A DNA stretch of 64,000 bases from Spirochaetia bacterium (GCA_021372235.1 JAJFUW010000146.1:322-64321); one strand, 5' to 3'. Positions 1-43,666 are shown, counted from the first letter of the stretch. Notes: generated by a model not told the origin, from the letters alone. Made by a program: numbers and translations.

Positions 1-1533
1 GAAGGTGGACTCGTTGAAGGATATAATGTTCATGGAGTTACCCGTGGAACCAAAAAGGTTTGCTGACATATTGTTGTAGACAAAAAGCACAGGCGAGTCA
101 TTCGAGGTATCCATGGTTAGTGAACCGTTTTCACCGATATAGACCGTGCCGTAAATGCAGACGTTTGATGATGTGGATGAACCCACCCTGGGGCCGCCTA
201 TCCGCAGTTCGCCGTTTACATACATCAGGCCGTAGTGTTTCACCTTTGTGAGCTTGGAATTTGCAGGATTTGAGGTATCCCTGACATAGTGGTAACCGTC
301 GGTATTCTGAGGGAAGTACCAGTTGCCAGGAGGGGAAATATTGCTGATGCGGTCCGCATTTGTCCCGGTGCCGCTGCCGAGGTTCCATGTATATCCGCCG
401 GTGTAGGTGATATTTGACGGGGTGTCACCCTTGATGACAAGCGGGCCCATGATTATGCAGGTGCCCTGGGTCATGTACTGGTTGGAATTTGTTACATAAA
501 AATTCAGCGTGTTGGCAGTATAAGTCAGGCTGCCGCTGTAAGTGTTGCAGGTGGATCCACCTCTGACAGGCAGCCCGTCGGTAGTGTCTATGTACAGGAC
601 CGATGTCTGGCTCTTTAATTTTGACATCAACGTCAGTACGTTGGCCTGGGACACCTGTGCGATATTGCCCGGGCCGTAATAGGACCCTTGTTTTTTTGCC
701 TGACCTTTGTACCACTCAAAATCTATATCCGGGACATCGGCAAATTCGGAGAACGGGTGAGCGTTGGCAGTCGGGCTCATGTCATTATAGGTATAGCCAA
801 ATATCCAGTTGCCGGAGGCGCTGTTGTTTATGTGTGTGTAAATGTCGTTCTTTGCGAATACTTTCGGGAGCCATTGTTCTCGCCATCCAGTTGTTCCGCG
901 GCCAACGTCAATATCGGGTATGCGGCAGTAGCCGCTCATGGTATTGCCGGAAAATATGTCGCCCCAGAAGAAATTCGCCCTGAAAGTGGGGGATACGAGG
1001 TTCGCCGGCTGGATGCACGGTATGTCAATTTTGCCTTTTGACAGCAGCGGCCCGCTAAGTTTCATTCTTTCGATGACCGCGTAGTAAGAACCGCTGCAAT
1101 TCGATCTTGCGGTATTAACCTTGATGCCGACGGTTCGGAAATTTTGCTTGGCCTGTCTGGAGTATGGATCGCTGAGGGTGGTAAAAAAAAGATTTCCTTC
1201 GGTCAGGTGTATTTTGTAATTGCCTATTTTCTGCCCGCCGCTGTTTATTTCAAACTCGTGGCCGTAACCATTGTAATTGGCCATGCCCGTCAGGCCGACT
1301 TTGTACCAGTTGTCGCCCTGCTGCAATTTATAGATCACCTGCTCGAGGGCCATGGAAGCGAGTTCCTGTTTTTGCATAACACAGTTCTGCCTGACAGACA
1401 GTATGGATTCTTTTCTGAATAGCGACACCATGGTCATACCGAGCAGTGTCAGCACCGCGGCAAGCATCATGACAAAAACAAGTGTTTGGCCGGCTGAAGA
1501 TCCTGTCAACGTCCGTGTTTTCCTGTCGGGCAT
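1..1533 (-). CDS. PilX-like minor pilin / pilus assembly protein (partial, continues past left edge)
   Basis: Not in ORF track because no stop lies in the window. Hand translation of the minus strand from the ATG at 1533 gives MPDRKTRTLTGSSAGQTLVFVMMLAAVLTLLGMTMVSL..., a PilX_N-like hydrophobic N-terminus (GQTLVFVMML..LTLLG). It runs open to position 1, and the other five frames are fragmented there. Same strand and 11 nt downstream of the pseudopilin gene. Confidence 0.5.
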   Translation of the reverse strand, partial: MPDRKTRTLTGSSAGQTLVFVMMLAAVLTLLGMTMVSLFRKESILSVRQNCVMQKQELASMALEQVIYKLQQGDNWYKVGLTGMANYNGYGHEFEINSGGQKIGNYKIHLTEGNLFFTTLSDPYSRQAKQNFRTVGIKVNTARSNCSGSYYAVIERMKLSGPLLSKGKIDIPCIQPANLVSPTFRANFFWGDIFSGNTMSGYCRIPDIDVGRGTTGWREQWLPKVFAKNDIYTHINNSASGNWIFGYTYNDMSPTANAHPFSEFADVPDIDFEWYKGQAKKQGSYYGPGNIAQVSQANVLTLMSKLKSQTSVLYIDTTDGLPVRGGSTCNTYSGSLTYTANTLNFYVTNSNQYMTQGTCIIMGPLVIKGDTPSNITYTGGYTWNLGSGTGTNADRISNISPPGNWYFPQNTDGYHYVRDTSNPANSKLTKVKHYGLMYVNGELRIGGPRVGSSTSSNVCIYGTVYIGENGSLTMDTSNDSPVLFVYNNMSANLFGSTGNSMNIISFNESTF

Positions 1534-1544
1534 GTTATACTCTC

Positions 1545-2204
1545 CTAATTATTATAATAACCGGCAGAATTCATGTGCTTTACGACGGCAATATCTTTTA
1601 AAAAAACCGTTAGAATCGGTCTGTCGTTCATTACCAGCTTTGAGAGCCGAACGGCGGTCGATATCTTTGTGCCTTCGGGAGAATCAATAAAGGCAAATTC
1701 CAGCGAATCCGCATTTGCGGTGATTGTTATGGAAGTGTATTTGGTGTTGTTGCTGACAGCCGTAGAATCTGTCATGTCGGTACCCGGTTTCACCTGCGGG
1801 AAGGAGGCTACAATATAATTCCTGTCCTGGTAGATTTCGACAGGGGCGCCCTTAACGCCCACGGTCTCGATATCGTTCGACATGCCGCAACCGCATTTGA
1901 CCCTGTTGGACGACACAAAGATCGTTTCGCCCGCCAGACAGGAGAGGTAACTGTTGACAGGCGACGAAGTGTTGAGCCTTGAGATGGAAATCGTGGACCC
2001 CTGAGAAACCTGCACAATTTTTTTGATCATCAGCATTGTCATCCTGGCTTCGCTGTCAAGGGCCATCCTGGCGGTACCGTAATTCCACATATAGAGGCCG
2101 TTGTTTAAAAGGTTGTACAGCCCCACTGTCACGATGCCCATGAGGGTAGCCGTTAACATCAGTTCAATGAGGGTAAAGCCTTTTTTACGGCCGGATAGTT
2201 TCAT
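1545..2204 (-). CDS. prepilin-type N-terminal cleavage/methylation domain protein (pseudopilin/minor pilin)
   Basis: N-terminus MKLSGRKKGFTLIELMLTATLMGIVTV is a class III signal (G/FTLIE motif plus hydrophobic helix). 219 aa. Confidence 0.75.
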   Translation of the reverse strand: MKLSGRKKGFTLIELMLTATLMGIVTVGLYNLLNNGLYMWNYGTARMALDSEARMTMLMIKKIVQVSQGSTISISRLNTSSPVNSYLSCLAGETIFVSSNRVKCGCGMSNDIETVGVKGAPVEIYQDRNYIVASFPQVKPGTDMTDSTAVSNNTKYTSITITANADSLEFAFIDSPEGTKISTAVRLSKLVMNDRPILTVFLKDIAVVKHMNSAGYYNN

Positions 2205-2214
2205 TGTATGCCCC

Positions 2215-4839
2215 TTAATATGTTGTCCAGGATGATGAAGGGTCCCCGGTAAAATTATTCCCTGAAGTGTTTGGCGATATACCGGAGAGGACCTTGTAAT
2301 ATTTTTTAATAGTCCTCACAGGTTTCTGTACCGTACCTGTAATAGAGACCGAAGAGTAGTAGGCGTAAATATTATAAGTCGCGCCGACGGGCGCTTTGAT
2401 GCTGTATGAGGAATTCTGCCCGGATATGGAGCCGTAGTATGGCTGTGTCACGCGAAGCCTCTGAGTATGGCCCTGCATGTTTTGGTCAGCATTGGTCCTG
2501 GTGTATTTATCCGCAACAAGTGTTACGGACGAGGGATAAGCCAGAATCAAAAGCCCGCCGGCCGAATCCGCCTCTGTAAGGTTTATGGTCCCGGAAATTG
2601 TGCCGTATTTGGCCCTGATTTTGAAATCTTTACCGAATGTGGTGATGCCCTGTACTACGGATACGTTTGACCAGTACTGGCCTATCGGGTAGGTGATGAC
2701 GTACTCATCCTCGTCAACGGAAGGCTGGACCTTGTAACCGCTGCCTACAGGGATGTCGGCTATCTCGTAAATACCCGATGCGTTTGACAGCCCCGAACCC
2801 AAGACGGTTCCGGCGTTATTTTTGAGCTCCACGGTAATCCCCGAAACAGGGTCTCCTGTCACGTCGTCTGTTATCATGCCCGAGACCTTGCCTACGGGGT
2901 ACATCAGTATATCCGGTGCGTACTGCACACCGTTCTGGATGGAGGACAATGAGATGGGCTCGGATATCCTGTATCCCGATAGAGAGGCTGTCAATATGTA
3001 TGAACCCACCGTTGCAGGCATTATGGTGTAATTGCCTCCGCCGACGGTTGTCGGGCTCACATCAAGCGGGTCCGACAGGTATACTTCGGCGCCTATGAGG
3101 CCTAATCCGGTAAGCGCGTCCTTGACCCTGCCGTTTATAGTAGGCACATCTGAGGTTACGGTCAGGAAGATGTCCTGGTACGTTACGGTGCCTGCCGATA
3201 CCGGGACTCCGGTCAGGCGTGCATAATAGGATATGGGCGGGGAGTCGCTGGTCCTCCTGGTTGCCTCGAGCACGGTCTCACCGGTGGACGGGTCGATGTT
3301 GTCAACCCTGTAATAGCATGCGGTCGTCAGGTATGGCATGGACAGGCCGTCCAGGGATTTTATCGTGGCATTGTCCGCGCATGGCGACGGATAGGGTGTC
3401 GGCGTAACAGCAGGGGTGAATGTCGATGTGGGTACGGGTGTTGCGACCGCGTATTGCACCTCGAGGTACGCGTAATCCATGCCAATCCAGGCTATGAAGT
3501 TCGGGCTGGTATTGGCGCTTCTGAAGGCAACACCAAGGCTGTTGACCTTTGCCCAGGTCCAGGAGTCATAAAGCGGGGTCAGCGGGACTGAAAATTCCAG
3601 GTAGTCTGCCATGTTCGGTATGTTTGTACTGTTGTAAACAGTTGAAACGGTGCCAGTCCAGCCGCTTGGCACGGCGGTATCTGCCCAGACAGACCCGCCG
3701 TTGTTAGTCACATGCAGCCGCACGGTCGCGGAACCGTAGTAACAGTTAGCCCTGTATTTCAGGGTAACACTGCAGATATATGTGTTGGCCTCGGTATAGT
3801 CGGCGAATTGCGAATATAGCAGCCTGTTGTTGCGGTTAACCAGGAACCCAAGATCGGTATCAGAGTCATTGTTGTCCTGTACGGATATACGCGTAGGGTA
3901 GTTCCAGTTGGAGGTTTTACCAGACATGGAACCGGTGGCCCCCAGTATCTTTGTAATGCCACAGAAGGGCACGGGTGTCGGCGACGGCGTGACAACCGGC
4001 GTGGGGGTCGCTATGACGTCCCAAAAGACATTACCGGAAACCGAGCCGCAGTCAACGGCGGGGCATGTGATGTTTATGTTCGGGATTACAGTGGGGATGT
4101 CGGGGACTGTCAGGGGGTTGGATGTGTATTCAGTATCCTGGAGCCCTGCACCCTTTGCGACCAGGCTGTATGAGCCGGGCGCAACGTTGGATATGGAGTA
4201 ATTGCCCGCGTCATCCGCTATCCTCCCGGTATACTGCGGGTAGCCGATGAAATGTACCGAGGCGTTGGAACCCAGGCCCGGGTCCGTGACGGTCCCGTCG
4301 TTCAGAAGTTTGCGGACGCGGCCACTGACCGTTGAGCCCGATAGTGGCAGCTGCTTGTTCGAAACCAGCGTCGACATCCTGCTGGATTTCTCAAAACCGC
4401 CAGACATGTATGTCACCACAACAGTTATCATCTTCAGGTCGTGCTTGTTATCAGGCGGGAGCTCTGACTGTTTTGACGGGGTTATGTTGCCGTCGTTTTG
4501 TTCATACGCGTACTGGACATACCTGTAGACCTTGAATGGTTGGTTTCCTATCATTACGGACTCATAATAGTCGGGGTTCGATTCGAGTTTGGAAAGCGGG
4601 TCAGGCAGCAGGTTGTCGTCGGTAACGGCCAGCCCCTCAAAACTGTTCTGCCGCATCCTGTCGAGGTTTTCCGATACAAGGTTCATGGAGTATGTTTTCA
4701 TCTGGGAAGCTGTTATATCCCTGTAAACCCTCGTGATCAGGTTTACTGCGGCGACTATCATTATTGCGGTAATTGTGGAGGAAATGAGCAATTCTATTAA
4801 TGTGACACCTCTGGATCCAGAGATTTTTTTCATCATCAT
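2215..4839 (-). CDS. giant (874 aa) prepilin-type N-terminal domain protein with repeated beta-sandwich (CarboxypepD_reg/Cna-B-like) domains and PT-rich linkers
   Basis: N-terminus MMMKKISGSRGVTLIELLISSTITAIMIVAAV (GVTLIEL pilin motif). Body has several ~80-aa units with the G.V.D...G.pl.gA.V...P.....Yt....G.Y pattern typical of CarboxypepD_reg-like folds, plus TPTPVVTPSPTPVP and TPVPTSTFTPAVTPTPYPSP linkers. 10-nt gap to the downstream pilin gene. Confidence 0.7.
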   Translation of the reverse strand: MMMKKISGSRGVTLIELLISSTITAIMIVAAVNLITRVYRDITASQMKTYSMNLVSENLDRMRQNSFEGLAVTDDNLLPDPLSKLESNPDYYESVMIGNQPFKVYRYVQYAYEQNDGNITPSKQSELPPDNKHDLKMITVVVTYMSGGFEKSSRMSTLVSNKQLPLSGSTVSGRVRKLLNDGTVTDPGLGSNASVHFIGYPQYTGRIADDAGNYSISNVAPGSYSLVAKGAGLQDTEYTSNPLTVPDIPTVIPNINITCPAVDCGSVSGNVFWDVIATPTPVVTPSPTPVPFCGITKILGATGSMSGKTSNWNYPTRISVQDNNDSDTDLGFLVNRNNRLLYSQFADYTEANTYICSVTLKYRANCYYGSATVRLHVTNNGGSVWADTAVPSGWTGTVSTVYNSTNIPNMADYLEFSVPLTPLYDSWTWAKVNSLGVAFRSANTSPNFIAWIGMDYAYLEVQYAVATPVPTSTFTPAVTPTPYPSPCADNATIKSLDGLSMPYLTTACYYRVDNIDPSTGETVLEATRRTSDSPPISYYARLTGVPVSAGTVTYQDIFLTVTSDVPTINGRVKDALTGLGLIGAEVYLSDPLDVSPTTVGGGNYTIMPATVGSYILTASLSGYRISEPISLSSIQNGVQYAPDILMYPVGKVSGMITDDVTGDPVSGITVELKNNAGTVLGSGLSNASGIYEIADIPVGSGYKVQPSVDEDEYVITYPIGQYWSNVSVVQGITTFGKDFKIRAKYGTISGTINLTEADSAGGLLILAYPSSVTLVADKYTRTNADQNMQGHTQRLRVTQPYYGSISGQNSSYSIKAPVGATYNIYAYYSSVSITGTVQKPVRTIKKYYKVLSGISPNTSGNNFTGDPSSSWTTY

Positions 4840-4891
4840 ACCTTCATTTATTTAATATCTAACAATATAATTATACAATAAGCTGGTAAAA

Positions 4892-5650
4892 TTACAACTT
4901 TTTTGTAAAGTTTGATTTTATAAGATATACAATTATTGATACAAAAAATATGACGGCACAGGTGATCTGCACCGGGGTCGGGAAAGAGTATCTGTCCTGA
5001 TACCGCATCAATTCCAGGAAAAACCTTGCAGCGGAGTAAAAAAACGCCAGCAGGACCATAAGTTCGCCGCTGAATTTTTGGTTTTTTTTCCTTATGAGAA
5101 GTATAATCAATATAAATAACCAGACGGTTGACTCGAATAACTGGACAGGCAGCAATGGCATGCCCGCGAATATTGTATATGGGTATGAACCATAGGGGTA
5201 GTTTACGCAAAATTCCCATCCGTTGGATGGCGGGATGCCAAAACAGCAGCCGCGCAACTGACAGCCCATCTTGGCGAACATACACCCTGCGGCAATTGAC
5301 GGCGCGAAATAGTCTGAAGCAATCCACGGATCGGTCTTTAGCAGACGGGCAATTGGGAAGGCAAATAGCGTAGCGGTTATTAGGCCCGGTAAAAGAGAGA
5401 CATCTCCCCAAAAAGAGAGGAGGCATCCGGCCTTGCCGGAGAGCAGGCAGACAACCATCTCCCAGCCGCGTGCCCCGCAGTAAAACGGGATAATAATAAC
5501 AGCCGCAAAGAGGAGTAGTTTTATCCGTTCCTGCCTGTCAATCGGTCTGGTGGTGTAAATCAGGAGGGAAAAACCGCATATTATACCGGCAACGGCAAGT
5601 ATATTGTACGACGGGACCTGCAGTGTGGCAAAATAGAAATATGGTATCAT
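4892..5650 (-). CDS. Lgt-family (prolipoprotein diacylglyceryl transferase-like) membrane protein, divergent, Cys-rich signature
   Basis: By-eye alignment to E. coli Lgt. SDYFAPSIAAG matches SDFIAPLIPFG; LLPVQLFESTVWLFILIIL matches HPSQLYELLLEGVVLFIIL; FFYSAARFFLELMRYQD matches IGYGAFRIIVEFFRQPD (Y...R...E conserved). Canonical G-R-L-G-N-F-I-N-G-E signature replaced by AKMGCQLRGCCFG. Confidence 0.65.
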   Translation of the reverse strand: MIPYFYFATLQVPSYNILAVAGIICGFSLLIYTTRPIDRQERIKLLLFAAVIIIPFYCGARGWEMVVCLLSGKAGCLLSFWGDVSLLPGLITATLFAFPIARLLKTDPWIASDYFAPSIAAGCMFAKMGCQLRGCCFGIPPSNGWEFCVNYPYGSYPYTIFAGMPLLPVQLFESTVWLFILIILLIRKKNQKFSGELMVLLAFFYSAARFFLELMRYQDRYSFPTPVQITCAVIFFVSIIVYLIKSNFTKKL

Positions 5651-5841: not shown

Positions 5842-6571
5842 CTATACAGGCTTGCGTTTTACCCATACAAAAACAGCCAAAAGTATGGCCAATAAGCACC
5901 ACAACCGGCCAATGGAGAGTATTTGAACGCTGTCGTTGTGGCGGAAAAACTCGATTGTGAAGCGGAAAGTGCCGTAAATGAAGAAAACTGCGGCTATCAT
6001 CCTGCCAAAGACAGGCTTGTTTCTATATAATAATATAAGCAGGATGAACGTGACGAGCCATGCCGTGGATTCGTACAATTGCGCAGGGTACAGGGGCAGG
6101 TCCGGGTATATCTGCGAAGCGCCGCTGTTAAAGGGGAAGGTAACGGCAAAAGGCGTATCAACAGGGCACGGCGTTCCGAAACAACAGCCGATAAAAAAAC
6201 AACCGAGTTTGACGAAAAATCCGCCTATCGCGATAGAGGGAGCGTACAGGTCGGCGGTTTCCCAGACATCTATATTTAAAAATTTGGCTGCGGGGAATGC
6301 GCAGAGTACGGCTGTCGCGAGCCCCACACCACAGCGAATCGCCGGACGGCGTGGCCGCAATGTAATGGGAAATAATGCCGCCGAGGCGCGCGCCGATGAT
6401 GAACGGGATAAAGATAGCTGCGGATAACAAAAAAATATTTTTTCTATTGTGCGACCCTATGGAGCGTGTCAGGAAAAACAGCATGATAAACCCGGAGGCA
6501 GCGCCGAGCAGGTCAAAGAGATAAGCTGTCTTGAAAACAAACCTGTTGAATTCAAAAAGTATGGGATACAT
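5842..6571 (-). pseudogene. second Lgt-family paralog, apparent +1/-1 frameshift near 6320-6345 (or sequencing error)
   Basis: ORF 6571..6158 encodes the N-terminal TM part (..PFIIGARLGGIISHYIAA) then runs into nonsense. ORF 6360..5842 in another frame encodes the conserved continuation (AFPAAKFLNIDVWETADLYAPSIAIGGFFVKLGCFFIGCCFG...QLYEST...FIYGTFRFTIEFFRHND). The frame switch falls at the cccc run 6322-6325. Confidence 0.55.
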
Positions 6572-6654
6572 CCCGGCCGCCTTTCGTAAATTATTTTCTG
6601 ACGGACCATTATAGCATAAAGAAAAGTAATTTTTGGTTTGCGGGGTAATTTTAG

Positions 6655-6696
6655 TTACGAAAAATAATTGAAATCTGTCAAAAAATCTACTATAAT
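6655..6696 (+). promoter_or_regulatory. sigma70-like promoter (TTGAAA-17-TATAAT), copy 1 of a duplicated ~41-nt promoter block
   Basis: ttacgaaaaataattgaaatctgtcaaaaaatctactataat; -35 at 6668-6673, -10 at 6691-6696, 17-nt spacer. Near-identical copy at 12431-12472. Confidence 0.5.
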
Positions 6697-6730
6697 AGCC
6701 ATATAGTAATTAAATTTCAAGGACGGGAAA

Positions 6731-7168
6731 ATGAAGAAAATAAAAGCGGTCGCATTGTCATTATTGTTTGTTTTTATTTTTTTGCCATTCGTTTCAGCCG
6801 AGGTCAATACGGTAAGCGTAATCAGCCTGACCCCTCCAAACCCAAATCCCGGCGACTCTGTGGCTGTTGAGTTTAGTTACTGTGTTGGTGCAAATGAAGA
6901 GAGCAGGTTCATGCTCGCTGTTTCGTCATATCCGACTTTCCAGGCCGGAGGCACGACCGGACAAGATTTCAAAGTAAGCGAAGGCGGATTTGATATAGGA
7001 GGTACAGGCGGAGGGACGGCAAGTGTCAGCGGTGGTTATGACATGAACGACCAGCAGGGCGCGGCCCATTGCCAGACCCTGACATGGAACATCCATATAC
7101 CGAACACCATATCCGAAGGCGGCACCTATTATGTTGTGATCGGAGGCAAGACGGGTATAAAATTTTAA
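6731..7168 (+). CDS. small secreted protein; truncated paralog (N-terminal domain only) of the 12507..14786 protein
   Basis: Signal peptide MKKIKAVALSLLFVFIFLPFVSA. Residues 24-145 align with the N-terminus of the 759-aa protein, including the conserved Cys pair (FSYCVGANEES / AAHCQTLTWNIHIP). Stops exactly where AT-rich DNA begins. Confidence 0.7.
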   Translation: MKKIKAVALSLLFVFIFLPFVSAEVNTVSVISLTPPNPNPGDSVAVEFSYCVGANEESRFMLAVSSYPTFQAGGTTGQDFKVSEGGFDIGGTGGGTASVSGGYDMNDQQGAAHCQTLTWNIHIPNTISEGGTYYVVIGGKTGIKF

Positions 7169-7233
7169 TAAATTTAAATATTGATGTTGGGCGAAAATAT
7201 TTTGCAAAAAAAATTCTCGGCCGGGGGTATTCT

Positions 7234-10200
7234 TTGATTAAAAAAAATCTTTTTATTTTAAATTTTATTTTTTTTACTTGTGTGACTATATATGGTGCTG
7301 CAGAAGTAAGGAATATTACTCTTTCCACGCAATGTATTAATCCCGGTCAAAGTATAACAGTTTCATTTGAAGTTAAATGTAATGCATATTTGAGAGTATA
7401 TGGTGATATATTATTTTCATCAAACTCGGTTGCAGAATATAGTGATGATTGTGTGTTTGGAGAGAACGGTTATTATGAAACCCCGGTTATTACTGGCCAC
7501 AACGGAGGATTACTTTTTGAAAATAACTATTCAACTTCAAATTGGAGTACAATCACAAAAACAATCCAAGTTCCTGATTTTTATACAGACGGAAAGTATT
7601 TAATTATAAATGTTGCAGAAAATTATCAACAACTGTTCAATTGGGGAAGCCATATTGAAGGAAGCAGTAGCCTATATATAAATATCTGCGAAAATTACAC
7701 AAATACATTAACGCCAACAATCGTTTTTCCTAATAATTCATTCACTGTAACTCCTACTTGTTCTTATACTATGACACAAACATTGTCACCGACGTCCTCG
7801 AATATTATTGTACCGACAATTACATGTACTCCAACAATAACAATTGCATTACCAGAAGTATATAAAGTGAGAATCGACTATAAACCTGGAAGTGATGAAA
7901 CAAACATAATCAAACCCTATTTTAGATTATACAACGAGAATACAATACCATTAGATCTTTCGAAGGTTAAAATAAAGTATTGGTACTTAATTGAAGATGA
8001 TTCACAAAATGAGAATAGAGAAATTTATTGGGTTGGAAAAAATAGCGGCGCAATAGATGTAACAAATAGCACTTTTGCTGAAATTAGTAAGACCAATATG
8101 GAAGATCAAAATCGTTGCTACGAAATAACATTCAGCAGCAGCGCGGGGCTATTAGATCAAGGGCAGTTTGTTGAGGTTCAAAGTGGAATATTTAAAGTGA
8201 ATTATAGCGATTATGATCAAGATAATGACTGGAGCTATAACAGCAGAAATGCAACATCTTTCGAATCTAATGGTAAAATAACTGTGAATGTCGACGGGAA
8301 AAATATATATGGAATGGTACCTTTTGATAAAAATCAACCAGTAATTATTAACATGAACTGTGGTGGTGCTGGATTTAATGACCACTTGGGAATTTTATAT
8401 TTGCAGGGACGTAAATATGAAAAAGGAGGATGGGGCTCAGAGTATTTTCCTGATATTTTAAGTAAACCTCAATTACCAATTGCAGGTACAGTCGACCAGT
8501 ATATTTATCAAAATGCGGTATTAGGAAGTCCAACGAAACCATTGCATTATATCTATGATAACATTCCAGTTGGATTGTATGAAGTAAAATTCAAATTCGC
8601 TGAAATTGATGAAAATGTAACAAGTGCTGGACAAAATGTATTTTCAATAGATATCGAAGACAAAAGTATTTTTCAATATATCGATGTGTTTGCTTCCGCC
8701 GGATTTGCCTATGCATATGAATTAGTAACCAAAGTTGCCGTATATGACGGTCAATTAAATATTGATTTTAATGGATCGTTTGCCAATGGGATTACAGTAC
8801 AGCAGATTTATGAGCAGGCAACACCGCAAACCTCAAGTAGTGCTACTTGTGATGCATGGGTTGACATTGACGGAGTCGGGCAGAATAATATTAATGTATC
8901 AAACACTGGAGAAAATTCGAAAAACCCATGGTTTGAAATTGACAGCAATAATCATACACACATAATGTGGATGGAGTATGCTGCTATATTAAGATATGAG
9001 GAGTGGGATGGAACATCCTGGAGAGGAGTTGGCGGTATAGGAAGTGGTTATTCAGCAGTAAACACACTTGGGAAAAGTATGCATTCATATTCATTCACAA
9101 TGGACGGGTCAGGTTATCCAGTTGTTACATTTGCAGGTAAATCTAGCTATAATGGAATATTTGACATTTATTGTACTAGATGGAATGGGTCAACGTGGGC
9201 CGATGTTACAGGCTCAGGAACAAGTAAATTGTGTGTTTGGTGCGGTAAACCCATAAACTATAATCCTTATGTTAAAATGGACTCTTTAGGAAATCCGCAC
9301 ATCGCATTTCATAGCATACCGTCTTATGGTGGCAGAATGGGTTATATAAGATGGAACGGAGCAGACTGGACGGATATTGATGGAGCAGGGACGGAAAAAG
9401 TGGTTATAGATAGACCCGGATTAGAGAATTCATATAATAGACAATTTGTTTTTGATTCAGCAAACCATCCGCATTTAGTTTGGATGCAGGAATATGATGG
9501 AACAGGCGAAATAAATTATATGAATTGGAATGGAACTAACTGGGTTGATGTGACGGGTTCCTCATCATTAAGTAAAATTAACATATCAAATAATAGCACT
9601 TACTCTACTTGCCCACAAATTGTTCTTGATTCAAGCGAATATCCAAATATTATATGGGTGGATGGTTCTACAAGTTCCAACAGTTTTAAGATAAATTTTC
9701 TAAAATGGAATGGAACTGCCTGGGTGGATATAGATGGTGTTGGAAAAGAATCTCAAGTTTTAAGTTTTACAAATTGTTCATCACAATCAGTTTCTATGGT
9801 TCTCGATAATGAAGGTAATCCGCATGTTGCTTGGGTTGACAAAAGTACAAATGAGCCATATTACGTATATTGGAATGGAACGGCATGGGTTGATGTTAGG
9901 GGTTCTACATCATTATCTAGTATTAAGGTTTATCAAGATACTGAAAAATATTCTAGTGCAAGTAGTGCCCAATTATGTCTTGATAATGATGGCATACCGC
10001 ATATCGCATGGACTAATTATAGCAAAAATAATGGATTTAGTGGCGAAATATACTATCTTAAATGGGGTGGAGCATGCCCGCCAACACCTACGCCTACACC
10101 TATAATTTGTGTATTAACTGAAACATCATATGGAGATAATGGGGAATTACAGTTAGAAAATTTAGCAGCATCGATGACAATGGACAATACGGGGAAAATA

Positions 10201-12405
10201 GTCACATCAGGTAATTACAATAATAATTATTTGGAGATTGCAAGATATAATCAAAATGGCACAAAAGATTATACATTTGACGGAGATGGACAAGTTTTAA
10301 CATATATACCCGGACTCGCTGGCAATCATGCGGTAATAGCTGATGAAAACAATAAAATACTAGCAACAACAAGAAACAATATAGATGGGCGTGTAATGGT
10401 TAGATGTCTGCCAAACGGACAGATTGATACTACGTTTGGAACAAACGGATATGCAATGCCGCCTTCAGGCGTGGACTTTTATGCGTGGGACATGAAAATA
10501 GATTCAGAAGGAAGAATAGTGGCGGTAGGTGTAAGTTCGGGAAACAATTCTCCAATTATGACAAAAATGACAGTATGCAGATATAATCCGAATGGGACAT
10601 TGGATTTAAGTTTTAACGGAACAGGATATACAACGAATAATATAAGTACAACAAATCCGACATTAAATACAATAGGGTTTGGCATAACATTTGATCAAAA
10701 TAATAAGATTGTTATTGTCGGAGAGGGAAATAATCCAACAACCGGTATGGTGATATGGAGATTTAATGATAACGGCACATTGGATACGAGTTTTAATGCT
10801 ACCGGAACCAATCCGGGAACAATAGTAGAGACTAAATATGCTGGTTCTATAAGTGGAAGAGAAGCATATATCGACGGGTTGGGGAGAATATTAGTAACTG
10901 GAAGTTGTTATCTGGCAAGCTGCGAGATGGCGGCAATATACAGATATAATACAGATGGATCCCCGGATATGAGTTTTGGAACTGGAGGATATACAGCAAT
11001 AAAAGGAAATGGCAATAAAGGCATAACAACAGACAAATGCGGAAGAATACTAGTTTTGAATACTGAAGGAGGACTTATAAGTAGATTCAATGACGATGGG
11101 ACTCCGGATACGACATTCAATAATGGGCAATATAGTATATCTGTTGCAAATGTAATATATGGAGAAGATTTAATATTGGAAGAAGATGGCGATATATTTG
11201 TTTTAACTATGGAACGAAATATGACTGACATGTCAAGTAACAGCAAGATAAGGAAATATAAGAACAATAGTGTTTGTGTTTGCGCACAAGTTACATTTAC
11301 GCCAACGCCGACAATGAATTGTACACCATCTTGGCAGTATATTGGAACGCCGGGAATATCAATTGGTATTGCAAATAATGGAGGAATAGGTATTTCATAT
11401 GGTACTATATATATAGGATTTAATGACTATGGGAATGACGGTAAAACATCAGCAATGTTTTTTAATGGCTCAATATGGAATAACATTGGCGGAATTGGAT
11501 TTTCAAATACATCAACATCAAATCCTTCATTTTTTGTCTTTAATGGTATGCCATACATGGCTTATGCAGATAATACTAATGGTTTTAAGGCAAAGGTTAT
11601 GAAATATAAGTATGGAATCTGGATACCTGTCGGATCGACTAGTATATCAGATGGTGAAGCACAAAACCTGTGTCTTTATGTATACGATGATGGTACTGTA
11701 GATGGATTACCATATCTTGCATTTAGGGATATGTATAATCTTGGTAAGGCAACAGTAAAAAGATTTTATGGTTCAAGTTGGACTGATGTGGGTGGATATC
11801 CAGCCATTACTAATGCAACTGCATATTATATGTCTTTTTATGTATATAATAATGGTACGACTTTTGGAATGCCATATTTAGCTTTCGAAGACTCGGCATC
11901 AGGCAGCAAAGCAAGTGTAATGAAATTTAATGGTACTTGGACATACGTTGGAGGATCCCCGGGAGCATCAATTGTTGCAGGGACATATACATCAATATAC
12001 ATATATAATAATGGCACATTTGAGGGATTACCATATCTAGCTTTCAGTAATATGGACAATTCCTATAAGGCTAATGTGATTAAATTTGAGACTGGGATTT
12101 GGCAAGTTGTGGGAGTACAAAATTTTACAACTACTGGTTCATCGGAAAATAAAATAGAAGTGTATGATGATGGATTAACTATTGGAGGAATACCTTATCT
12201 TGCATATATTGATTTTGATACTACATTTAAAGCAAATGTAGTGAAACTGGTTGGTTCAAGTTGGCAAAGTGTTGGTAGTGCAAATTTCACACCAAGTAAT
12301 ATCGGCCAAATATTTTTTGATATATGCAAAGGAATACCTTATGTATCTTTTGTTGACTGGAATGCTGATGGAAAATTAAGTGTGATGAAATATGATTGCC
12401 AATAG
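7234..12405 (+). CDS. giant secreted multidomain carbohydrate-binding/repeat protein (CBM3-like, malectin-like, W-rich propeller, delta-60 repeats, second propeller)
   Basis: The track ORF 7069..12405 begins with TTG and overlaps the upstream gene. A TTG at 7234 preceded by GGGGG gives the signal peptide LIKKNLFILNFIFFTCVTIYGAA. Domains by eye: CBM3 (YKVRIDYKPGSDETNIIKPYFRLYNENTIPLDLSKVKIKYWY...DWSYN); malectin (VIINMNCGGAGF...YEVKFKFAEIDEN...); repeats ..NPHIAW...WNGTxWVDVxGS; PTPTPTP linkers; delta-60 (RYNxNGTxDxxFxGxG); final ~50-aa repeats (G.PYLAF.D....KAxVxK(F/Y)..g.W..VG). Gene GC is visibly much lower than the flanks. Confidence 0.8.
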   Translation: MIKKNLFILNFIFFTCVTIYGAAEVRNITLSTQCINPGQSITVSFEVKCNAYLRVYGDILFSSNSVAEYSDDCVFGENGYYETPVITGHNGGLLFENNYSTSNWSTITKTIQVPDFYTDGKYLIINVAENYQQLFNWGSHIEGSSSLYINICENYTNTLTPTIVFPNNSFTVTPTCSYTMTQTLSPTSSNIIVPTITCTPTITIALPEVYKVRIDYKPGSDETNIIKPYFRLYNENTIPLDLSKVKIKYWYLIEDDSQNENREIYWVGKNSGAIDVTNSTFAEISKTNMEDQNRCYEITFSSSAGLLDQGQFVEVQSGIFKVNYSDYDQDNDWSYNSRNATSFESNGKITVNVDGKNIYGMVPFDKNQPVIINMNCGGAGFNDHLGILYLQGRKYEKGGWGSEYFPDILSKPQLPIAGTVDQYIYQNAVLGSPTKPLHYIYDNIPVGLYEVKFKFAEIDENVTSAGQNVFSIDIEDKSIFQYIDVFASAGFAYAYELVTKVAVYDGQLNIDFNGSFANGITVQQIYEQATPQTSSSATCDAWVDIDGVGQNNINVSNTGENSKNPWFEIDSNNHTHIMWMEYAAILRYEEWDGTSWRGVGGIGSGYSAVNTLGKSMHSYSFTMDGSGYPVVTFAGKSSYNGIFDIYCTRWNGSTWADVTGSGTSKLCVWCGKPINYNPYVKMDSLGNPHIAFHSIPSYGGRMGYIRWNGADWTDIDGAGTEKVVIDRPGLENSYNRQFVFDSANHPHLVWMQEYDGTGEINYMNWNGTNWVDVTGSSSLSKINISNNSTYSTCPQIVLDSSEYPNIIWVDGSTSSNSFKINFLKWNGTAWVDIDGVGKESQVLSFTNCSSQSVSMVLDNEGNPHVAWVDKSTNEPYYVYWNGTAWVDVRGSTSLSSIKVYQDTEKYSSASSAQLCLDNDGIPHIAWTNYSKNNGFSGEIYYLKWGGACPPTPTPTPIICVLTETSYGDNGELQLENLAASMTMDNTGKIVTSGNYNNNYLEIARYNQNGTKDYTFDGDGQVLTYIPGLAGNHAVIADENNKILATTRNNIDGRVMVRCLPNGQIDTTFGTNGYAMPPSGVDFYAWDMKIDSEGRIVAVGVSSGNNSPIMTKMTVCRYNPNGTLDLSFNGTGYTTNNISTTNPTLNTIGFGITFDQNNKIVIVGEGNNPTTGMVIWRFNDNGTLDTSFNATGTNPGTIVETKYAGSISGREAYIDGLGRILVTGSCYLASCEMAAIYRYNTDGSPDMSFGTGGYTAIKGNGNKGITTDKCGRILVLNTEGGLISRFNDDGTPDTTFNNGQYSISVANVIYGEDLILEEDGDIFVLTMERNMTDMSSNSKIRKYKNNSVCVCAQVTFTPTPTMNCTPSWQYIGTPGISIGIANNGGIGISYGTIYIGFNDYGNDGKTSAMFFNGSIWNNIGGIGFSNTSTSNPSFFVFNGMPYMAYADNTNGFKAKVMKYKYGIWIPVGSTSISDGEAQNLCLYVYDDGTVDGLPYLAFRDMYNLGKATVKRFYGSSWTDVGGYPAITNATAYYMSFYVYNNGTTFGMPYLAFEDSASGSKASVMKFNGTWTYVGGSPGASIVAGTYTSIYIYNNGTFEGLPYLAFSNMDNSYKANVIKFETGIWQVVGVQNFTTTGSSENKIEVYDDGLTIGGIPYLAYIDFDTTFKANVVKLVGSSWQSVGSANFTPSNIGQIFFDICKGIPYVSFVDWNADGKLSVMKYDCQ

Positions 12406-12430
12406 TTGCAGATTATCTTCTACAAAAAAA

Positions 12431-12472
12431 TTACGAAAATAATTGAAATCTGCCAAAAAATCTACTATAATA
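12431..12472 (+). promoter_or_regulatory. sigma70-like promoter, copy 2 of the duplicated block
   Basis: ttacgaaaataattgaaatctgccaaaaaatctactataat; -35 at 12443-12448, -10 at 12466-12471. About 40/41 identical to 6655-6696. RBS aagga(c/g)(a/g)ggaaaATG is also conserved. Confidence 0.5.
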
Positions 12473-12506
12473 TTTATATATTAGTTATAATCCTAAGGAC
12501 AGGAAA

Positions 12507-14786
12507 ATGAAAAAAATCCTAAGAAGCTTATTAATGGTGTTGCTTGTAACTTTTACGCTTACACCTGTTTTTGCCACTGTTACATCAGTCAGCATTACAA
12601 GCGTGACACCGGCCAGCCCTGCTCCGGGTGATCTGGTGCAGGTTATTTTCAATTATTGCGCAGGCCCTTATGAAGATACTAAGATGGTGCTGGCGGTCTC
12701 AACAAACTCAAGTTTCATGGCGTGCAATACGGCCGGTCAGGAGTTTAAGGTAAGCGAGGGCGGAATGGATATTGGAGGGACCGGGCCCGGAGCGGCAACC
12801 GCCAATGGCGGTTACAATATGAGCGACAACCAGACTGTTGCTCACTGTCAGGATATTACATGGAGCATACATATTCCCACAACCGCAACGCCAGGCCTGA
12901 CATATTATATCCTTGTCGGAGGCAGGTCCTCTTATATAGGCTGCAATGATGCGCAGGCGTACGCGAACTATTCTTTTGTGGCACCGTTGCCGTCGCCGGC
13001 TGCAACAATATCCAAAACAGCCGAATCCTCAGTAGTCCAGCCGGGAGATCTTGTGCTTTTCAGTATCGATTACACTTTTGTCAATGGCACCAATTTTACC
13101 ATAACTGACAACATCCCTGCAGGCTGCGTGATTGAATCCGTAAGCAACGGCGGTATTGTCTCGGGTTCCACTGTTTCCTGGGCAACGGCATCCGTGCCGG
13201 GGCCGCAAGCAAGCGGGAGCGTGTGGTTCACCGCCAGGGTTAATACGGGCACCACACCCGGCACAGTGATCTCAAACACTGCCCACTGGGCCATGGACGA
13301 GATACCGGCAGGCGGTGACAGCAGCGCGGTGACGGTCACGGTAGGGCAGCCGTTTTCGATAACCAAAAGCCAGAACGTAACAACAGCTGCGATAGGAGAA
13401 ACGGTAACATATTCTTTTGATGTACGGGCCGGCGGATCGGCATTTCATTCACTGGATAATTTCGACGCCGACCTGAACGGTTTTACGGTTGCCGGTCCCG
13501 GGCCGGGCTTTATCTGGCAGTCTGACGCCGGCGGCGGACATATCTATTCATATGAGCAGACAGGCGGACAGTACCCGCATCTCTTGAGGACTGACCTGGG
13601 GAATTTTTGCTTCGGTGACATACAGGGAGACCTCTACATAATAAACAAGGCCAGCGGAGACAATGATGCATTGATAACATTCCGGGACAATGGTTTATAC
13701 GGGGCTGCGGGAGCCGCATACGGTGTTGGCATCTCTCCTGACGGTTCAAATTCCGTCGGCCAACAATTGTGGATACAAAAATATGTATCAGGCACGACCG
13801 GCGGCACGTTTGCGGGAGCGTTCATATCGATTTCTACGGATGCTTGGTATACCGTTAAGATCCATGTATCAGATACAGCCAGCGGTGTCAGGATACAGGC
13901 AAAGGCATGGCTGAGAGGCACTGCTGAACCGGCTGCTTATATGGCGGACTGGACCGATACGGCCGCAATCATCGCTCCATGCGGGTATGTTGGCGTTCAG
14001 GGTAACGCCAATAACGCGAACTACTACGACAATCTGAAAATAGTAAAGACCACAATGTCATATCCTGCCCTGTACGACACCCTCCCGACGGAACTGACTT
14101 TCGTGGGCGGGACCGGCGCTGACGCGACACACTCCGCAGCCACGCTGACGGGCAACACCGTGAAATGGTCCATATTTACATCGTTTGTTGACGCGGCTTA
14201 CCATCTGGACCTGTGGGCCGTTGTGAACGCCTGCGGCACTCTTTTGAACAGGGCAACGATAGACACCGAGGAATCCGCGCCTGTTGACTCAAACCAGGTA
14301 TCCATCAATGCTCTCTGCCCCGAGTCGCCGACGATAACCCCGACATTTACGATTACAGAGACATATACGGATACCGCAACACCGACAATAACGCTTACAT
14401 CAACCCTTACGCCGACCCTCACAGAGACGCTTACCCGCACCGTCACAATGACGTTAACCGCGACCCCGACGCCGACGGTGCCGCTCGAGCTGACACCGGT
14501 CACGAACTACCCCAATCCTTTCGGCACGTCCGACAAGCAGACAACCACGATTGTTTTCGAGCTCACAGCGGATGCGGACTGCACCATAACGGTATTTACC
14601 CTGTCAGGAGAGACCATATACAGGTCGGGGACATTTGCGGGGTTAAAGGGCAGGAACTCGTATCCATGGGACGGGAAAAATAACGGCAACAAATTCGCCG
14701 CATCAGGGGTCTATTTTTACAGGATAACCGCGGAAAATCCCTCCGGGAAAAAGTCGGCGATTTCAAGGCTTGCGGTTTTGAGGTAG
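12507..14786 (+). CDS. secreted 759-aa protein: conserved N-terminal domain, DUF11-like repeats, LamG-like region, Thr-rich linker, Por_Secre_tail-like C-terminal sorting domain
   Basis: Signal peptide present. N-domain paralogous to 6731..7168. DUF11-type segment (PGDLVLFSIDYTFVNGTNFTITDNIPAGCVIESVS...TVSW...NTAHWA). C-terminus TNYPNPFGTSDKQTTTIVFELTADADCTITVFTLSGETIYRSG...GVYFYRITAEN matches the T9SS-type CTD (YPNPF hallmark). Confidence 0.8.
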   Translation: MKKILRSLLMVLLVTFTLTPVFATVTSVSITSVTPASPAPGDLVQVIFNYCAGPYEDTKMVLAVSTNSSFMACNTAGQEFKVSEGGMDIGGTGPGAATANGGYNMSDNQTVAHCQDITWSIHIPTTATPGLTYYILVGGRSSYIGCNDAQAYANYSFVAPLPSPAATISKTAESSVVQPGDLVLFSIDYTFVNGTNFTITDNIPAGCVIESVSNGGIVSGSTVSWATASVPGPQASGSVWFTARVNTGTTPGTVISNTAHWAMDEIPAGGDSSAVTVTVGQPFSITKSQNVTTAAIGETVTYSFDVRAGGSAFHSLDNFDADLNGFTVAGPGPGFIWQSDAGGGHIYSYEQTGGQYPHLLRTDLGNFCFGDIQGDLYIINKASGDNDALITFRDNGLYGAAGAAYGVGISPDGSNSVGQQLWIQKYVSGTTGGTFAGAFISISTDAWYTVKIHVSDTASGVRIQAKAWLRGTAEPAAYMADWTDTAAIIAPCGYVGVQGNANNANYYDNLKIVKTTMSYPALYDTLPTELTFVGGTGADATHSAATLTGNTVKWSIFTSFVDAAYHLDLWAVVNACGTLLNRATIDTEESAPVDSNQVSINALCPESPTITPTFTITETYTDTATPTITLTSTLTPTLTETLTRTVTMTLTATPTPTVPLELTPVTNYPNPFGTSDKQTTTIVFELTADADCTITVFTLSGETIYRSGTFAGLKGRNSYPWDGKNNGNKFAASGVYFYRITAENPSGKKSAISRLAVLR

Positions 14787-31810: not shown

Positions 31811-31877
31811 AAACCCCTGTCCACCCTCCCGGTCCTTTTCCTTGTTTTTCGCAAGGTTTTATCCTATAATTATTCCT

Positions 31878-40745: not shown

Positions 40746-40987
40746 ATAGGCGGTAAAATGGAAGGGTTGCCTATAGGAATTTGAAATATGTTTTAATATC
40801 CGTTATATAAAAAAATAACAAAAAAACTTGACAATCTTTATTATATTGATATATTATTATGTCAAATGGGTGGTTATTATGATTTTTTAAGATACCTCTA
40901 CACACAGGAGGTGCGCGGGGTTAAAAAAATTTTTGTTTTTGCATTACCGGTTTGAGGTTTCACAACAAAAAAATGGAGGAAAGCAGA

Positions 40988-42229: not shown

Positions 42230-42292
42230 TATGAACCCATACTGCCTGGCTTTTGGGTCCGGCTGTGATGAACAACAAAAAAACGGAGGACG

Positions 42293-43627: not shown

Positions 43628-43666
43628 GCAATTGCACCGAAAAATCTTGAAAGAAGGAGAAGCGCA

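What the first reader, a model, noticed from the sequence alone, without database searches (positions are those of the whole stretch)
1..4839. Pilin-like operon with an 874-aa prepilin-type protein carrying multiple beta-sandwich adhesin-like domains
Three consecutive minus-strand genes encode class III signal peptides (KGFTLIELM; RGVTLIELL; PilX-like GQTLVFVMML..LTLLG). The middle one is unusually large for a pilin-fold protein. It carries repeated CarboxypepD_reg/Cna-B-like modules and Pro/Thr linkers, suggesting a pilus-tip or pilus-displayed adhesin. No pilus motor or secretin genes are in the window, so these may be minor pilins of a type IV pilus or T2SS encoded elsewhere.
Basis: partly seen in the sequence, partly recalled or inferred. 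Interest (0 to 1): 0.5.

Follow-up and report, generated by a model that had tools for sequence, protein, structure and literature searches.

The report
Minor-pilin tip set with giant pilin
Three adjacent genes encode the small "tip" subunits of a type IV pilus-like filament, one of which has grown a long multi-domain stalk that probably acts as an adhesin; this is a lineage-specific example of a design already described in other bacteria.

Summary
Minus-strand ORFs 2215-4839 (874 aa, SRG|VTLIELL), 1545-2204 (219 aa, KKG|FTLIELM) and 1-1533 (511 of 520 aa, SAG|QTLVF..., no Glu5) are a tight operon. AlphaFold models give the first and third a pilin fold: a ~50-residue N-terminal helix plus a 4-stranded sheet.

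The 874-aa protein then carries six beta-sandwich domains. Three are CarboxypepD_reg. One is a rare ~170-aa module with no family, flanked by two Pro/Thr linkers.

Gene order matches GspI-J-K / PilV-W-X. The trio is conserved in about 20 uncultured species (Goldiibacteriota, FCPU426, "Spirochaetia" MAGs). There it sits between an lgt gene and a Wzy_C+TPR membrane enzyme, and it is duplicated in tandem once.

No pilus motor, secretin, peptidase or major pilin lies in the window or within 10 kb of the homologous loci that carry Pfam annotation. Whether the genome encodes them could not be tested.

Modular pilins, including ones with PF13620 modules, and solenoid-bearing PilX/ComZ caps are already described. 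This is a new member of a known kind, of moderate-to-low interest.

The parts
2215..4839 (-). 874-aa modular minor pilin in the PilV/GspI slot: prepilin leader, pilin module and about 700 aa of beta-sandwich stalk
   Evidence: ORF. N_methyl 20.9 bits; CarboxypepD_reg 73.3 bits. PilV N-terminus E 1e-6. AF2 model, mean pLDDT 70. 13 full-length homologues at 40-48% identity.
4651..4839 (-). Class III signal peptide (MMMKKISGSRG|VTLIE, Glu at +5) and the alpha-1 helix, residues 1-63
   Evidence: Sequence. Helix 14-63 in the model. Glu16 and Thr13 are invariant in 13 homologues. G|[FLVM]T[FLY][IV]E is found in 22 loci.
4336..4650 (-). Globular pilin sheet, residues 64-168 (strands 92-97, 100-113, 135-146, 149-160)
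   Evidence: AF2 secondary structure.
4021..4335 (-). First beta-sandwich domain (D2, residues 169-273), CarboxypepD_reg/fn3_3-like; conserved in all orthologues
   Evidence: Pfam. AF2. Domain-wise BLAST.
3967..4011 (-). Pro/Thr linker 1 (ATPTPVVTPSPTPVP, residues 277-291)
   Evidence: pLDDT below 50 for residues 275-292.
3442..3963 (-). Rare unclassified beta-sandwich module (residues 293-466); absent from the 680-725-aa orthologues
   Evidence: No Pfam or PDB sequence match. Only 23 cluster representatives among 1.84 billion. Also found at the N-terminal tips of long Thr/Pro-rich surface proteins. Variable presence.
3382..3444 (-). Pro/Thr linker 2 (residues 466-486)
   Evidence: pLDDT below 50 for residues 467-484.
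2608..3384 (-). Three further beta-sandwich domains: D4 (486-565, conserved Cys487/Cys508), D5 (566-642) and D6 (643-744), the last two CarboxypepD_reg
   Evidence: Pfam stretches 568-631 and 652-705. AF2. Invariant cysteines.
2218..2607 (-). Conserved C-terminal beta-sandwich domain (745-874) ending in the invariant W-T-x-Y
   Evidence: Alignment. Present in every full-length orthologue; only L016, a 636-aa ORF from a fragmented locus, lacks it. No family match.
1545..2204 (-). 219-aa minor pilin in the PilW/GspJ slot (MKLSGRKKG|FTLIELM)
   Evidence: N_methyl 30 bits; TIGR02532 25 bits. A profile of 16 orthologues hits pilin N-termini in the PDB. The fold itself was not modelled.
1..1533 (-). 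ComZ/GspK/PilX-type capping pilin (511 of 520 aa; SSAG|QTLVF, no Glu5) with an inserted beta-solenoid
4870..4897 (-). Promoter-like site (TTGTAA-16-TATAAT) just upstream of the 874-aa gene; consensus match only
4892..5650 (-). lgt-family gene, the conserved upstream neighbour of the trio; a functional link is not shown
   Evidence: Pfam LGT 86.5 bits. lgt lies upstream in most related loci.

Best explanation
The three genes are a co-transcribed set of type IV-filament minor pilins that form the priming/tip complex. Their order is GspI/PilV-type, then GspJ/PilW-type, then GspK/PilX/ComZ-type.

Shown or predicted here:
- The first two proteins have canonical prepilin leaders with Gly-1 and Glu+5.
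- The first and third are predicted to have the pilin fold.
- The third lacks Glu5 and is predicted to combine a GspK-like pilin domain with an ice-binding-protein-like beta-solenoid, as ComZ does.
- The first carries a ~700-aa C-terminal chain of six beta-sandwich domains. Two Pro/Thr linkers in it flank a rare, variably present module.

Inferred mechanism:
- A prepilin peptidase encoded elsewhere cleaves after the Gly.
- The three hydrophobic helices bundle in the inner membrane into an I-J-K-like heterotrimer.
- A major pilin encoded elsewhere polymerises beneath that trimer.
- The complex ends up at the distal tip of the filament.
- There the solenoid subunit caps or plugs the filament, taking the role PilY1 has in Proteobacteria.
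- The beads-on-a-string stalk of the I-type subunit holds out the variable module to bind a surface ligand, most plausibly a polysaccharide.

In related genomes the operon continues into a Wzy_C (O-antigen-ligase family) + TPR membrane protein and a second polytopic membrane protein. These may glycosylate the Pro/Thr linkers. This last step is speculative.
For: - Leaders and Glu5 are conserved in 22 loci.
- N_methyl and PilV profile hits.
- AF2 pilin folds: helix 14-63 plus 4 strands; helix 18-71 plus 4 strands.
- Third protein: ComZ is the only significant Foldseek hit in the PDB.
- Absence of Glu5 in the cap subunit is the known hallmark of PilX/GspK (bioRxiv 10.64898/2026.02.12.705559).
- 10-11-bp intergenic gaps.
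- The trio is syntenic in 19 GTDB species and tandemly duplicated as a unit in L020.
- The stalk resembles adhesin and pilus stalks of tandem Ig-like domains.
- The mid module is variable, and elsewhere it sits at the tips of long surface proteins.
- The conserved Cys487/Cys508 pair fits an extracytoplasmic location.
- Modular pilins, including ones with PF13620 modules, are documented (PMC8179133).
Against: - No major pilin, FimU/GspH-type fourth subunit, PilB/C/D/M-Q or secretin lies in the 64-kb window.
- None lies within 10 kb of the five relatives' loci that carry Pfam annotation.
- The conserved neighbours are instead lipid and glycan membrane enzymes.
- The 874-aa protein's N_methyl and TIGR02532 scores fall just under their cut-offs.
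- Some orthologues have Ala or Ser at position -1.
- The third protein matches no PilX_N or T2SSK sequence model.
- The Foldseek TM-score to ComZ is only about 0.2.
- The 219-aa protein's fold was not modelled.
- The large model has pTM 0.40, so its inter-domain arrangement is unknown.
- No binding activity is shown for any domain.
Confidence: 0.68

Rival explanations
1. The trio is an 'EPS-type' minor-pilin set. It primes a type IV-filament-like machine whose job is export or surface attachment of a polysaccharide. It works with the downstream Wzy_C+TPR and polytopic membrane proteins, like the pilin-like Hps proteins of filamentous cyanobacteria. On this reading the large subunit binds the cell's own glycan, not a foreign surface.
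For: - The trio is invariably followed by a Wzy_C+TPR gene and usually by another multi-pass membrane protein.
- The Wzy_C protein weakly matches a putative O-glycosylation ligase (TIGR03097, E 2e-9, below the cut-off).
- Cyanobacterial PilX-EPS subunits with large solenoids are encoded in the hps polysaccharide-secretion locus.
Against: - No glycosyltransferase, Wzx/Wza or sugar-nucleotide genes are in the conserved block.
- Synteny within one lineage can be inherited without any functional coupling.
- The Wzy_C gene is not in this window.
Confidence: 0.15
2. The trio is the tip of a competence pilus. The solenoid subunit is a DNA receptor like ComZ of Thermus thermophilus, and the set serves DNA uptake, not adhesion.
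For: - ComZ is the closest solved full-length structure.
- ComZ, with the GspI-like PilA2, binds DNA at the pilus tip.
Against: - Sequence identity to ComZ is only 9-11%. The DNA-binding lysines could not be mapped.
- A 700-aa carbohydrate-binding-like stalk on the I-type partner has no counterpart in the Thermus locus.
- Solenoid PilX subunits also occur in motility and EPS sets.
- No comEA/comEC-type genes are nearby.
Confidence: 0.08
3. The three proteins are GspI/J/K pseudopilins of a type II secretion system. They form the tip of a periplasmic piston and are not surface-displayed.
For: - Weak GspH/I/J profile hits on the N-termini.
- JGI annotates two homologues as 'pseudopilin PulG'.
Against: - GspK carries an alpha-helical insertion, not a beta-solenoid. 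Solenoid caps are known from extracellular pili.
- An 874-aa multi-domain GspI has no precedent among the T2SS minor pseudopilins named in the papers consulted.
- No gspC-F, L, M or D genes are adjacent, although T2SS genes are usually clustered (my own knowledge).
Confidence: 0.07
4. The proteins are not filament subunits. They stay anchored in the inner membrane by an uncleaved pilin-like helix and form an envelope complex together with the Lgt, Wzy_C and other membrane proteins of the block.
For: - No pilus machinery lies near the block in any genome whose flanks carry Pfam annotation.
- Ala or Ser at -1 in some orthologues.
- Sub-threshold N_methyl score for the large protein.
Against: - Invariant Glu5 in two of the three proteins, and its specific absence in the third, is the pattern of an assembling tip complex.
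- The GspK-like fold of the third protein.
- Minor-pilin operons are commonly unlinked from the motor genes (my own knowledge).
Confidence: 0.05

Closest known systems
Thermus thermophilus competence-pilin locus pilA1-pilA2-pilA3-comZ (ComZ, PDB 6qvi)
   Same: - Gene order is GspI-like, GspJ-like, then a ~520-aa cap.
- The cap has a GspK-like pilin domain plus a large ice-binding-protein-like beta-solenoid.
   Different: - About 10% sequence identity.
- No GspH-like pilA1 and no adjacent major pilin here.
- The I-type subunit is 874 aa here instead of a small pilin.
- DNA binding was not tested.
T2SS GspI-GspJ-GspK tip trimer (PDB 3ci0) and P. aeruginosa PilV-PilW-PilX core minor pilins
   Same: - Same order of three subunits.
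- The last subunit lacks Glu5.
- The PilV profile hits the N-terminus of the first protein.
   Different: - No sequence-profile membership: T2SSK and PilX_N do not hit, and PilV scores 29 bits against a cut-off of 52.
- The inserted domain is a solenoid, not an alpha-helical domain.
- No H/FimU subunit and no PilY1.
Cyanobacterial PilX homologues with a beta-solenoid (Schuergers et al., bioRxiv 2026)
   Same: A cap pilin with a bulky solenoid, proposed to plug the tip in organisms without PilY1, and encoded with PilV and PilW partners.
   Different: - A different phylum.
- The cyanobacterial gene order is given as PilX-PilV-PilW-FimT.
- The preprint passages I read mention no giant PilV. I saw only search excerpts.
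Modular type IV pilins (S. sanguinis PilB and PilC; ETEC CofB; the InterPro survey of Raynaud et al. 2021)
   Same: - A pilin module, then a linker, then grafted functional modules.
- PF13620 (CarboxypepD_reg) is among the frequent grafted modules.
- Multi-domain examples of about 860 aa exist.
   Different: - Here the modular protein sits in the core I-type slot.
- It has six extra domains, including one that belongs to no family.
Pilin O-oligosaccharyltransferases TfpO/PilO and PglL (Wzy_C family). This relates to the downstream gene in related loci, not to the window.
   Same: A Wzy_C-family membrane protein is encoded directly after the pilin genes. The known enzymes glycosylate Ser/Thr in pilins (my own knowledge).
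   Different: - It has an extra C-terminal TPR domain.
- It matches no equivalog model.
- Activity and substrate are unknown.

Membership tests
Type IV pilin / class III signal peptide proteins (PF07963, TIGR02532) | Short basic leader ending in Gly, then about 20 hydrophobic residues with Glu at +5 | tested here: met
   874-aa protein: SRG|VTLIE. 219-aa protein: KKG|FTLIE. Conserved in 22 loci. The third protein has Gly/Ala-1 but no Glu5.
Type IV pilin / class III signal peptide proteins (PF07963, TIGR02532) | Profile score above the curated cut-off | tested here: inconclusive
   219-aa protein: 30.0 against 21.2 bits and 25.0 against 16.3, both met. 874-aa protein: 20.9 against 21.2 and 15.6 against 16.3, just under. 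Third protein: no hit.
Type IV pilin / class III signal peptide proteins (PF07963, TIGR02532) | Long N-terminal alpha-helix packed on an antiparallel beta-sheet | tested here: met
   AF2 models of the 874-aa protein (helix 14-63, 4 strands) and of the third protein (helix 18-71, 4 strands). The 219-aa protein was not modelled.
Type IV pilin / class III signal peptide proteins (PF07963, TIGR02532) | Cleavage and methylation by a prepilin peptidase, and incorporation into a filament built by PilB/PilC-type machinery | not testable with these tools
   No machinery in the window or in the annotated 10-kb flanks of relatives.
GspK / PilX / ComZ-type capping pilin | Lacks Glu5 and is encoded last in the I-J-K order | tested here: met
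   Consensus [GA]|Q[ST][LF]P.V in 22 orthologues; it is the third gene of the trio.
GspK / PilX / ComZ-type capping pilin | GspK-like pilin fold carrying a large inserted domain | tested here: met
GspK / PilX / ComZ-type capping pilin | Sequence-profile membership (Pfam T2SSK, PilX_N) | tested here: not met
   None of 32 family members hits either model at E <= 1. A profile search of PDB sequences finds nothing.
PilV / GspI | Equivalog-level profile match and small size (about 100-190 aa) | tested here: not met
   TIGR02523 scores 29.2 bits against a cut-off of 52.2 and covers residues 10-66 only. GspI E 0.089. The protein is 874 aa. Only the position before J and K, and the small pilin module, fit.
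Modular pilins (sensu Raynaud et al. 2021) | An N-terminal pilin module followed by at least one domain not specific to pilus biology | tested here: met
   Pilin module 1-168, then CarboxypepD_reg domains and others.
CarboxypepD_reg (PF13620) | Score above the gathering cut-off | tested here: met
   73.3 bits against 32.3, in three stretches.
Cna-B / SdrD_B / SpaA isopeptide-type domains | Score above the gathering cut-off | tested here: not met
   SdrD_B 28.7 against 29.7; SpaA 20.8 against 23.1; no Cna_B hit. Only a fold-level resemblance to such stalks.
Pilin O-oligosaccharyltransferase (TfpO/PglL), for the downstream gene of related loci | Wzy_C domain, and demonstrated transfer of glycan to a pilin | not testable with these tools
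   Wzy_C is present in precomputed Pfam. There is only a weak TIGR03097 hit. The gene lies outside the window and its activity is unknown.

The most novel reading that the evidence does not exclude
In this uncultured lineage the core I-type minor pilin has itself become the tip adhesin. On this reading it is a 70-95-kDa stalk, possibly O-glycosylated, that presents a rare and unclassified beta-sandwich module. It works with a solenoid cap in place of PilY1. It is genetically tied to a dedicated Wzy_C+TPR enzyme and not to the pilus motor. Some members of the lineage are reported to bind and degrade cellulose, so the module could be a new carbohydrate-binding family used for pilus-mediated attachment to plant polysaccharide.
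Probability: 0.2. Interest if true: 0.55.

Novelty: new member of a known kind. Interest (0 to 1): 0.33.

Why it matters
The finding gives a concrete, phylum-wide candidate for how Goldiibacteriota/FCPU426-type bacteria attach to surfaces. These bacteria are uncultured, and some were captured on cellulose.

It adds a case in which a core minor pilin, not an accessory one, carries the grafted modules.

It extends the ComZ/solenoid-PilX cap beyond Thermus and cyanobacteria.

It flags a ~170-aa surface module that has no family assignment and very few relatives. That module could be expressed and tested for glycan binding.

None of this changes current concepts of type IV filaments.

Tried and rejected
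- **Extending the contig by exact-protein look-up.** The 874-aa protein is not on record. The 219-aa protein is on record only on a 788-bp contig. The missing C-terminus of gene 3 came instead from P0029.
- **Sequence-level placement of the third protein.** Pfam on 32 members and a PDB profile search gave nothing.
- **Sequence-level placement of the mid module.** Pfam at E <= 10 and a PDB profile search gave nothing except spurious Rab hits.
- **Fold search with the whole 874-aa model.** It returns only generic tandem Ig-like stalks: TIE, SdrD, PitA, SpaA, FimD.
- **Literature on Goldbacteria pili.** No paper mentions them.
- **Pilus machinery in the genome.** This was not possible. The tools give only 10 kb around a known protein.
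- **Lipoprotein reading.** Considered because of the lgt neighbour and rejected. The proteins begin with prepilin-type leaders and I saw no lipobox by eye; I ran no lipoprotein predictor.
- **T9SS or sortase cargo.** Rejected because I saw no C-terminal sorting domain or LPXTG in the 874-aa protein.
- **Sigma-54 two-component pair at 49.6-52.4 kb.** Considered as PilS/PilR-like, but there is nothing specific to support this.

Full report
**Observation**

The three minus-strand ORFs exist as described.
- 2215-4839: 874 aa, starting MMMKKISGSRG|VTLIELL.
- 1545-2204: 219 aa, starting MKLSGRKKG|FTLIELM.
- 1-1533: starts MPDRKTRTLTGSSAG|QTLVFVMMLAAVLTLLG and leaves the window.

The complete third protein is P0029 (520 aa, NCBI tag LLG37_06725), so only nine residues are missing. 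The genes are 10 and 11 bp apart. A promoter-like site sits in the 52 bp between the upstream lgt gene and the large gene; it is a consensus match only.

Pfam N_methyl scores 30.0 bits for the 219-aa protein and 20.9 bits for the 874-aa protein, against a cut-off of 21.2. CarboxypepD_reg scores 73.3 bits in three stretches. SdrD_B and SpaA stay just below their cut-offs, so 'Cna-B-like' is a clan-level statement. NCBIfam adds a PilV match on residues 10-66 (E 1e-6, below the equivalog cut-off) and faint N-terminal GspI/J/H hits.

Within the whole 64-kb window, only these two ORFs carry a G|[FV]TLIE motif.

**Origin and distribution**

The window is almost all of a 64.5-kb contig of an NCBI MAG labelled 'Spirochaetia bacterium'. 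Relatives are labelled Candidatus Goldiibacteriota, candidate division FCPU426, or 'uncultured Spirochaetia'.

The large protein has only 13 full-length homologues (40-48% identity) in the 5.8-billion-sequence collection at the sensitivity of that search. The third protein has 48. A scan of one genome per species found the cluster in 19 species.

In all of them the arrangement is the same:
- an lgt gene;
- the large pilin (680-913 aa);
- a ~220-aa pilin;
- a ~510-600-aa protein;
- a Wzy_C+TPR membrane protein (~590 aa);
- usually another polytopic membrane protein.

In L020 the trio is duplicated in tandem, one copy with a long and one with a short large subunit, ahead of a single Wzy_C gene. 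The three genes therefore behave as a unit.

The N-termini are conserved across 22 loci.
- Large protein: G|[FLVM]T[FLY][IV]E.
- ~220-aa protein: G|[FW]TL[IVLM]E.
- Third protein: [GA]|Q[ST][LF]P.V, without Glu5.

**The 874-aa protein**

The AF2 model was built from 13 sequences (mean pLDDT 70, pTM 0.40). It shows a helix at 14-63 and a four-stranded sheet at 92-160, which is a pilin module of about 165 residues. Beta-sandwich domains follow at about 170-273, 295-465, 486-561, 567-640, 644-743 and 745-874. They are separated by low-confidence Pro/Thr linkers at 277-291 and 466-486.

Cys487 and Cys508 are invariant, as is the C-terminal W-T-x-Y.

A fold search with the whole model returns only stalks of tandem Ig-like domains from Gram-positive adhesins and pilins. 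That fits a rod-like spacer but is not specific.

Domain-wise BLAST over 22 orthologues shows the pilin module and D2 everywhere. D6 and the C-terminal domain are in nearly all: D6 gave no hit in L005 and L024, and the fragmentary 636-aa ORF of L016 has neither. The 293-466 module and its neighbours D4 and D5 are absent from the 680-725-aa variants.

The 293-466 module has no Pfam family and no PDB sequence relative. An exhaustive profile search of 1.84 billion cluster representatives found just 23 proteins at E <= 1e-3. Apart from orthologues, these fall into two groups, neither with a Pfam family for the region:
- signal-peptide proteins with the module at the extreme N-terminus, followed by hundreds of residues of Thr/Pro-rich repeats (P0073, P0075). 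P0073 ends in what looks like a T9SS-type sorting domain;
- proteins with three or four tandem copies (P0079, P0082).

A variable, distally placed, aromatic-rich module suggests a ligand-binding head. This is an inference from architecture, not a demonstrated activity.

**The third protein**

No member of its family hits PilX_N, T2SSK or any other informative Pfam model. A profile search of PDB sequences also finds nothing.

The AF2 model was built from 32 sequences (pLDDT 78, pTM 0.69). It shows a helix at 18-71, four strands at 93-157, and a large beta-rich domain.

Foldseek against the PDB gives one significant target, ComZ of Thermus thermophilus (6qvi). The match has E 1e-4 and covers the full length, but TM is only about 0.2.

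- lower down, tapirins, GspI, PilX and other pilins.

This is the pattern Salleh et al. reported for ComZ itself: a GspK-like pilin domain plus an ice-binding-like solenoid, argued to fit only at the pilus tip together with the GspI-like PilA2 (PMC6561018).

A 2026 preprint reports the same solenoid in cyanobacterial PilX subunits and proposes that it plugs the tip where PilY1 is absent. It also restates that the cap subunit characteristically lacks Glu5.

**The 219-aa protein**

It is a bona fide class III signal peptide protein. A profile of 16 orthologues hits only pilin N-termini in the PDB. I assign it to the J/PilW slot from its position and size only; its fold was not modelled.

**Interpretation**

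The order matches GspI-J-K, PilV-W-X and Thermus PilA2-PilA3-ComZ:
- an I-type N-terminus;
- a ~220-aa pilin;
- a Glu5-less GspK/ComZ-type cap.

The best explanation is a type IV-filament priming/tip complex in which the I-type subunit is a modular pilin with a long stalk. The solenoid cap and the size of the stalk favour an extracellular pilus over a periplasmic T2SS pseudopilus.

The following steps are inferred from established knowledge of these families and are not shown here:
- cleavage by a prepilin peptidase;
- trimer formation;
- polymerisation of a major pilin beneath the trimer;
- display at the tip;
- ligand binding.

The Wzy_C+TPR neighbour belongs to the family that includes the pilin O-oligosaccharyltransferases TfpO and PglL (my own knowledge). 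The Pro/Thr linkers are plausible targets. The only computed support is the Wzy_C domain and a weak hit to a putative O-glycosylation ligase, and the gene lies outside the window. An alternative is an EPS-linked set like the cyanobacterial hps locus.

**What argues against**

- There is no major pilin, no H/FimU-type subunit and no motor, platform, peptidase or secretin in the window. I checked 42 ORFs.
- None of these lies within 10 kb of the annotated relatives' loci either.
- Some orthologues have Ala or Ser at position -1.

**Comparison and novelty**

Raynaud et al. catalogued more than 1,200 modular pilins in 264 architectures. PF13620 is among the frequent modules, and multi-domain examples reach about 860 aa (PMC8179133). 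ComZ and solenoid PilX caps are also described. The finding is therefore a new member of a known kind.

Its particular features are:
- the modular protein occupies the core I-type slot;
- it carries a rare, unclassified module;
- the trio is fixed next to lgt and Wzy_C+TPR genes throughout an uncultured lineage.

Cells of this lineage were recovered on cellulose (PMC7031533; that paper says nothing about pili).

I rate interest at about 0.33.

Noticed in passing
window 5842-6571 (-): A second lgt-like gene directly upstream of the intact lgt is split over two frames. ORF 5842-6360 matches LGT profile positions 89-239. ORF 6158-6571 looks like the N-terminal part, though it was not scanned. It is either a frameshifted paralogue or an assembly error.
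   Followed up: partly
window 7069-12405 (+), with 6731-7168: A 1778-aa secreted protein with CBM_3, Malectin and delta-60/DUF5122 propeller repeats lies in a marked GC dip (36% against about 50%), which suggests acquisition by transfer. By eye, the small ORF before it resembles its N-terminal domain.
   Followed up: partly
window 12507-14786 (+) and 31842-34232 (+): Surface proteins that carry FlgD_ig / T9SS type-A sorting-like domains (C-terminal in the first, mid-protein in the second). One has DUF11 repeats and the other an OmpA domain. This points to a T9SS-like export route in this organism.
   Followed up: no
L020 (CAYGHG010000042.1) 6611-14270: The pilin trio is tandemly duplicated. 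One copy has an 829-aa large subunit and the other a 687-aa one. Both lie ahead of a single Wzy_C+TPR gene.
   Followed up: partly
L002 18180-19970 (-) and its counterparts in most related loci: A ~595-aa protein with no Pfam or NCBIfam hit lies next to a cNMP-binding protein. It is 58-92% identical across these genomes, far more conserved than the pilins beside it.
   Followed up: no
window 1545-2204 (-), residues ~104-107: The 219-aa pilin family has a conserved C-G-C-G motif (the first Cys is present in at least 90% of 16 orthologues). Its role is unknown.
   Followed up: no
L005 5960-7108 and 16445-18076; L002 and L003 about 8150-9110: UbiA-family prenyltransferases flank the lgt-pilin block in several genomes. 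In L005 a geranylgeranyl-reductase-like gene (weak DAO/GGR_cat hits) flanks it too. These may belong to an isoprenoid-lipid pathway unrelated to the pilins.
   Followed up: no
window 40952-44908 (+): Three consecutive proteins of 413-444 aa have no Pfam family. One has a faint outer-membrane-protein hit.
   Followed up: no
whole window: The MAG is labelled 'Spirochaetia bacterium' at NCBI. Its closest relatives for these genes are labelled Goldiibacteriota or FCPU426, so the taxonomic label is doubtful.
   Followed up: partly
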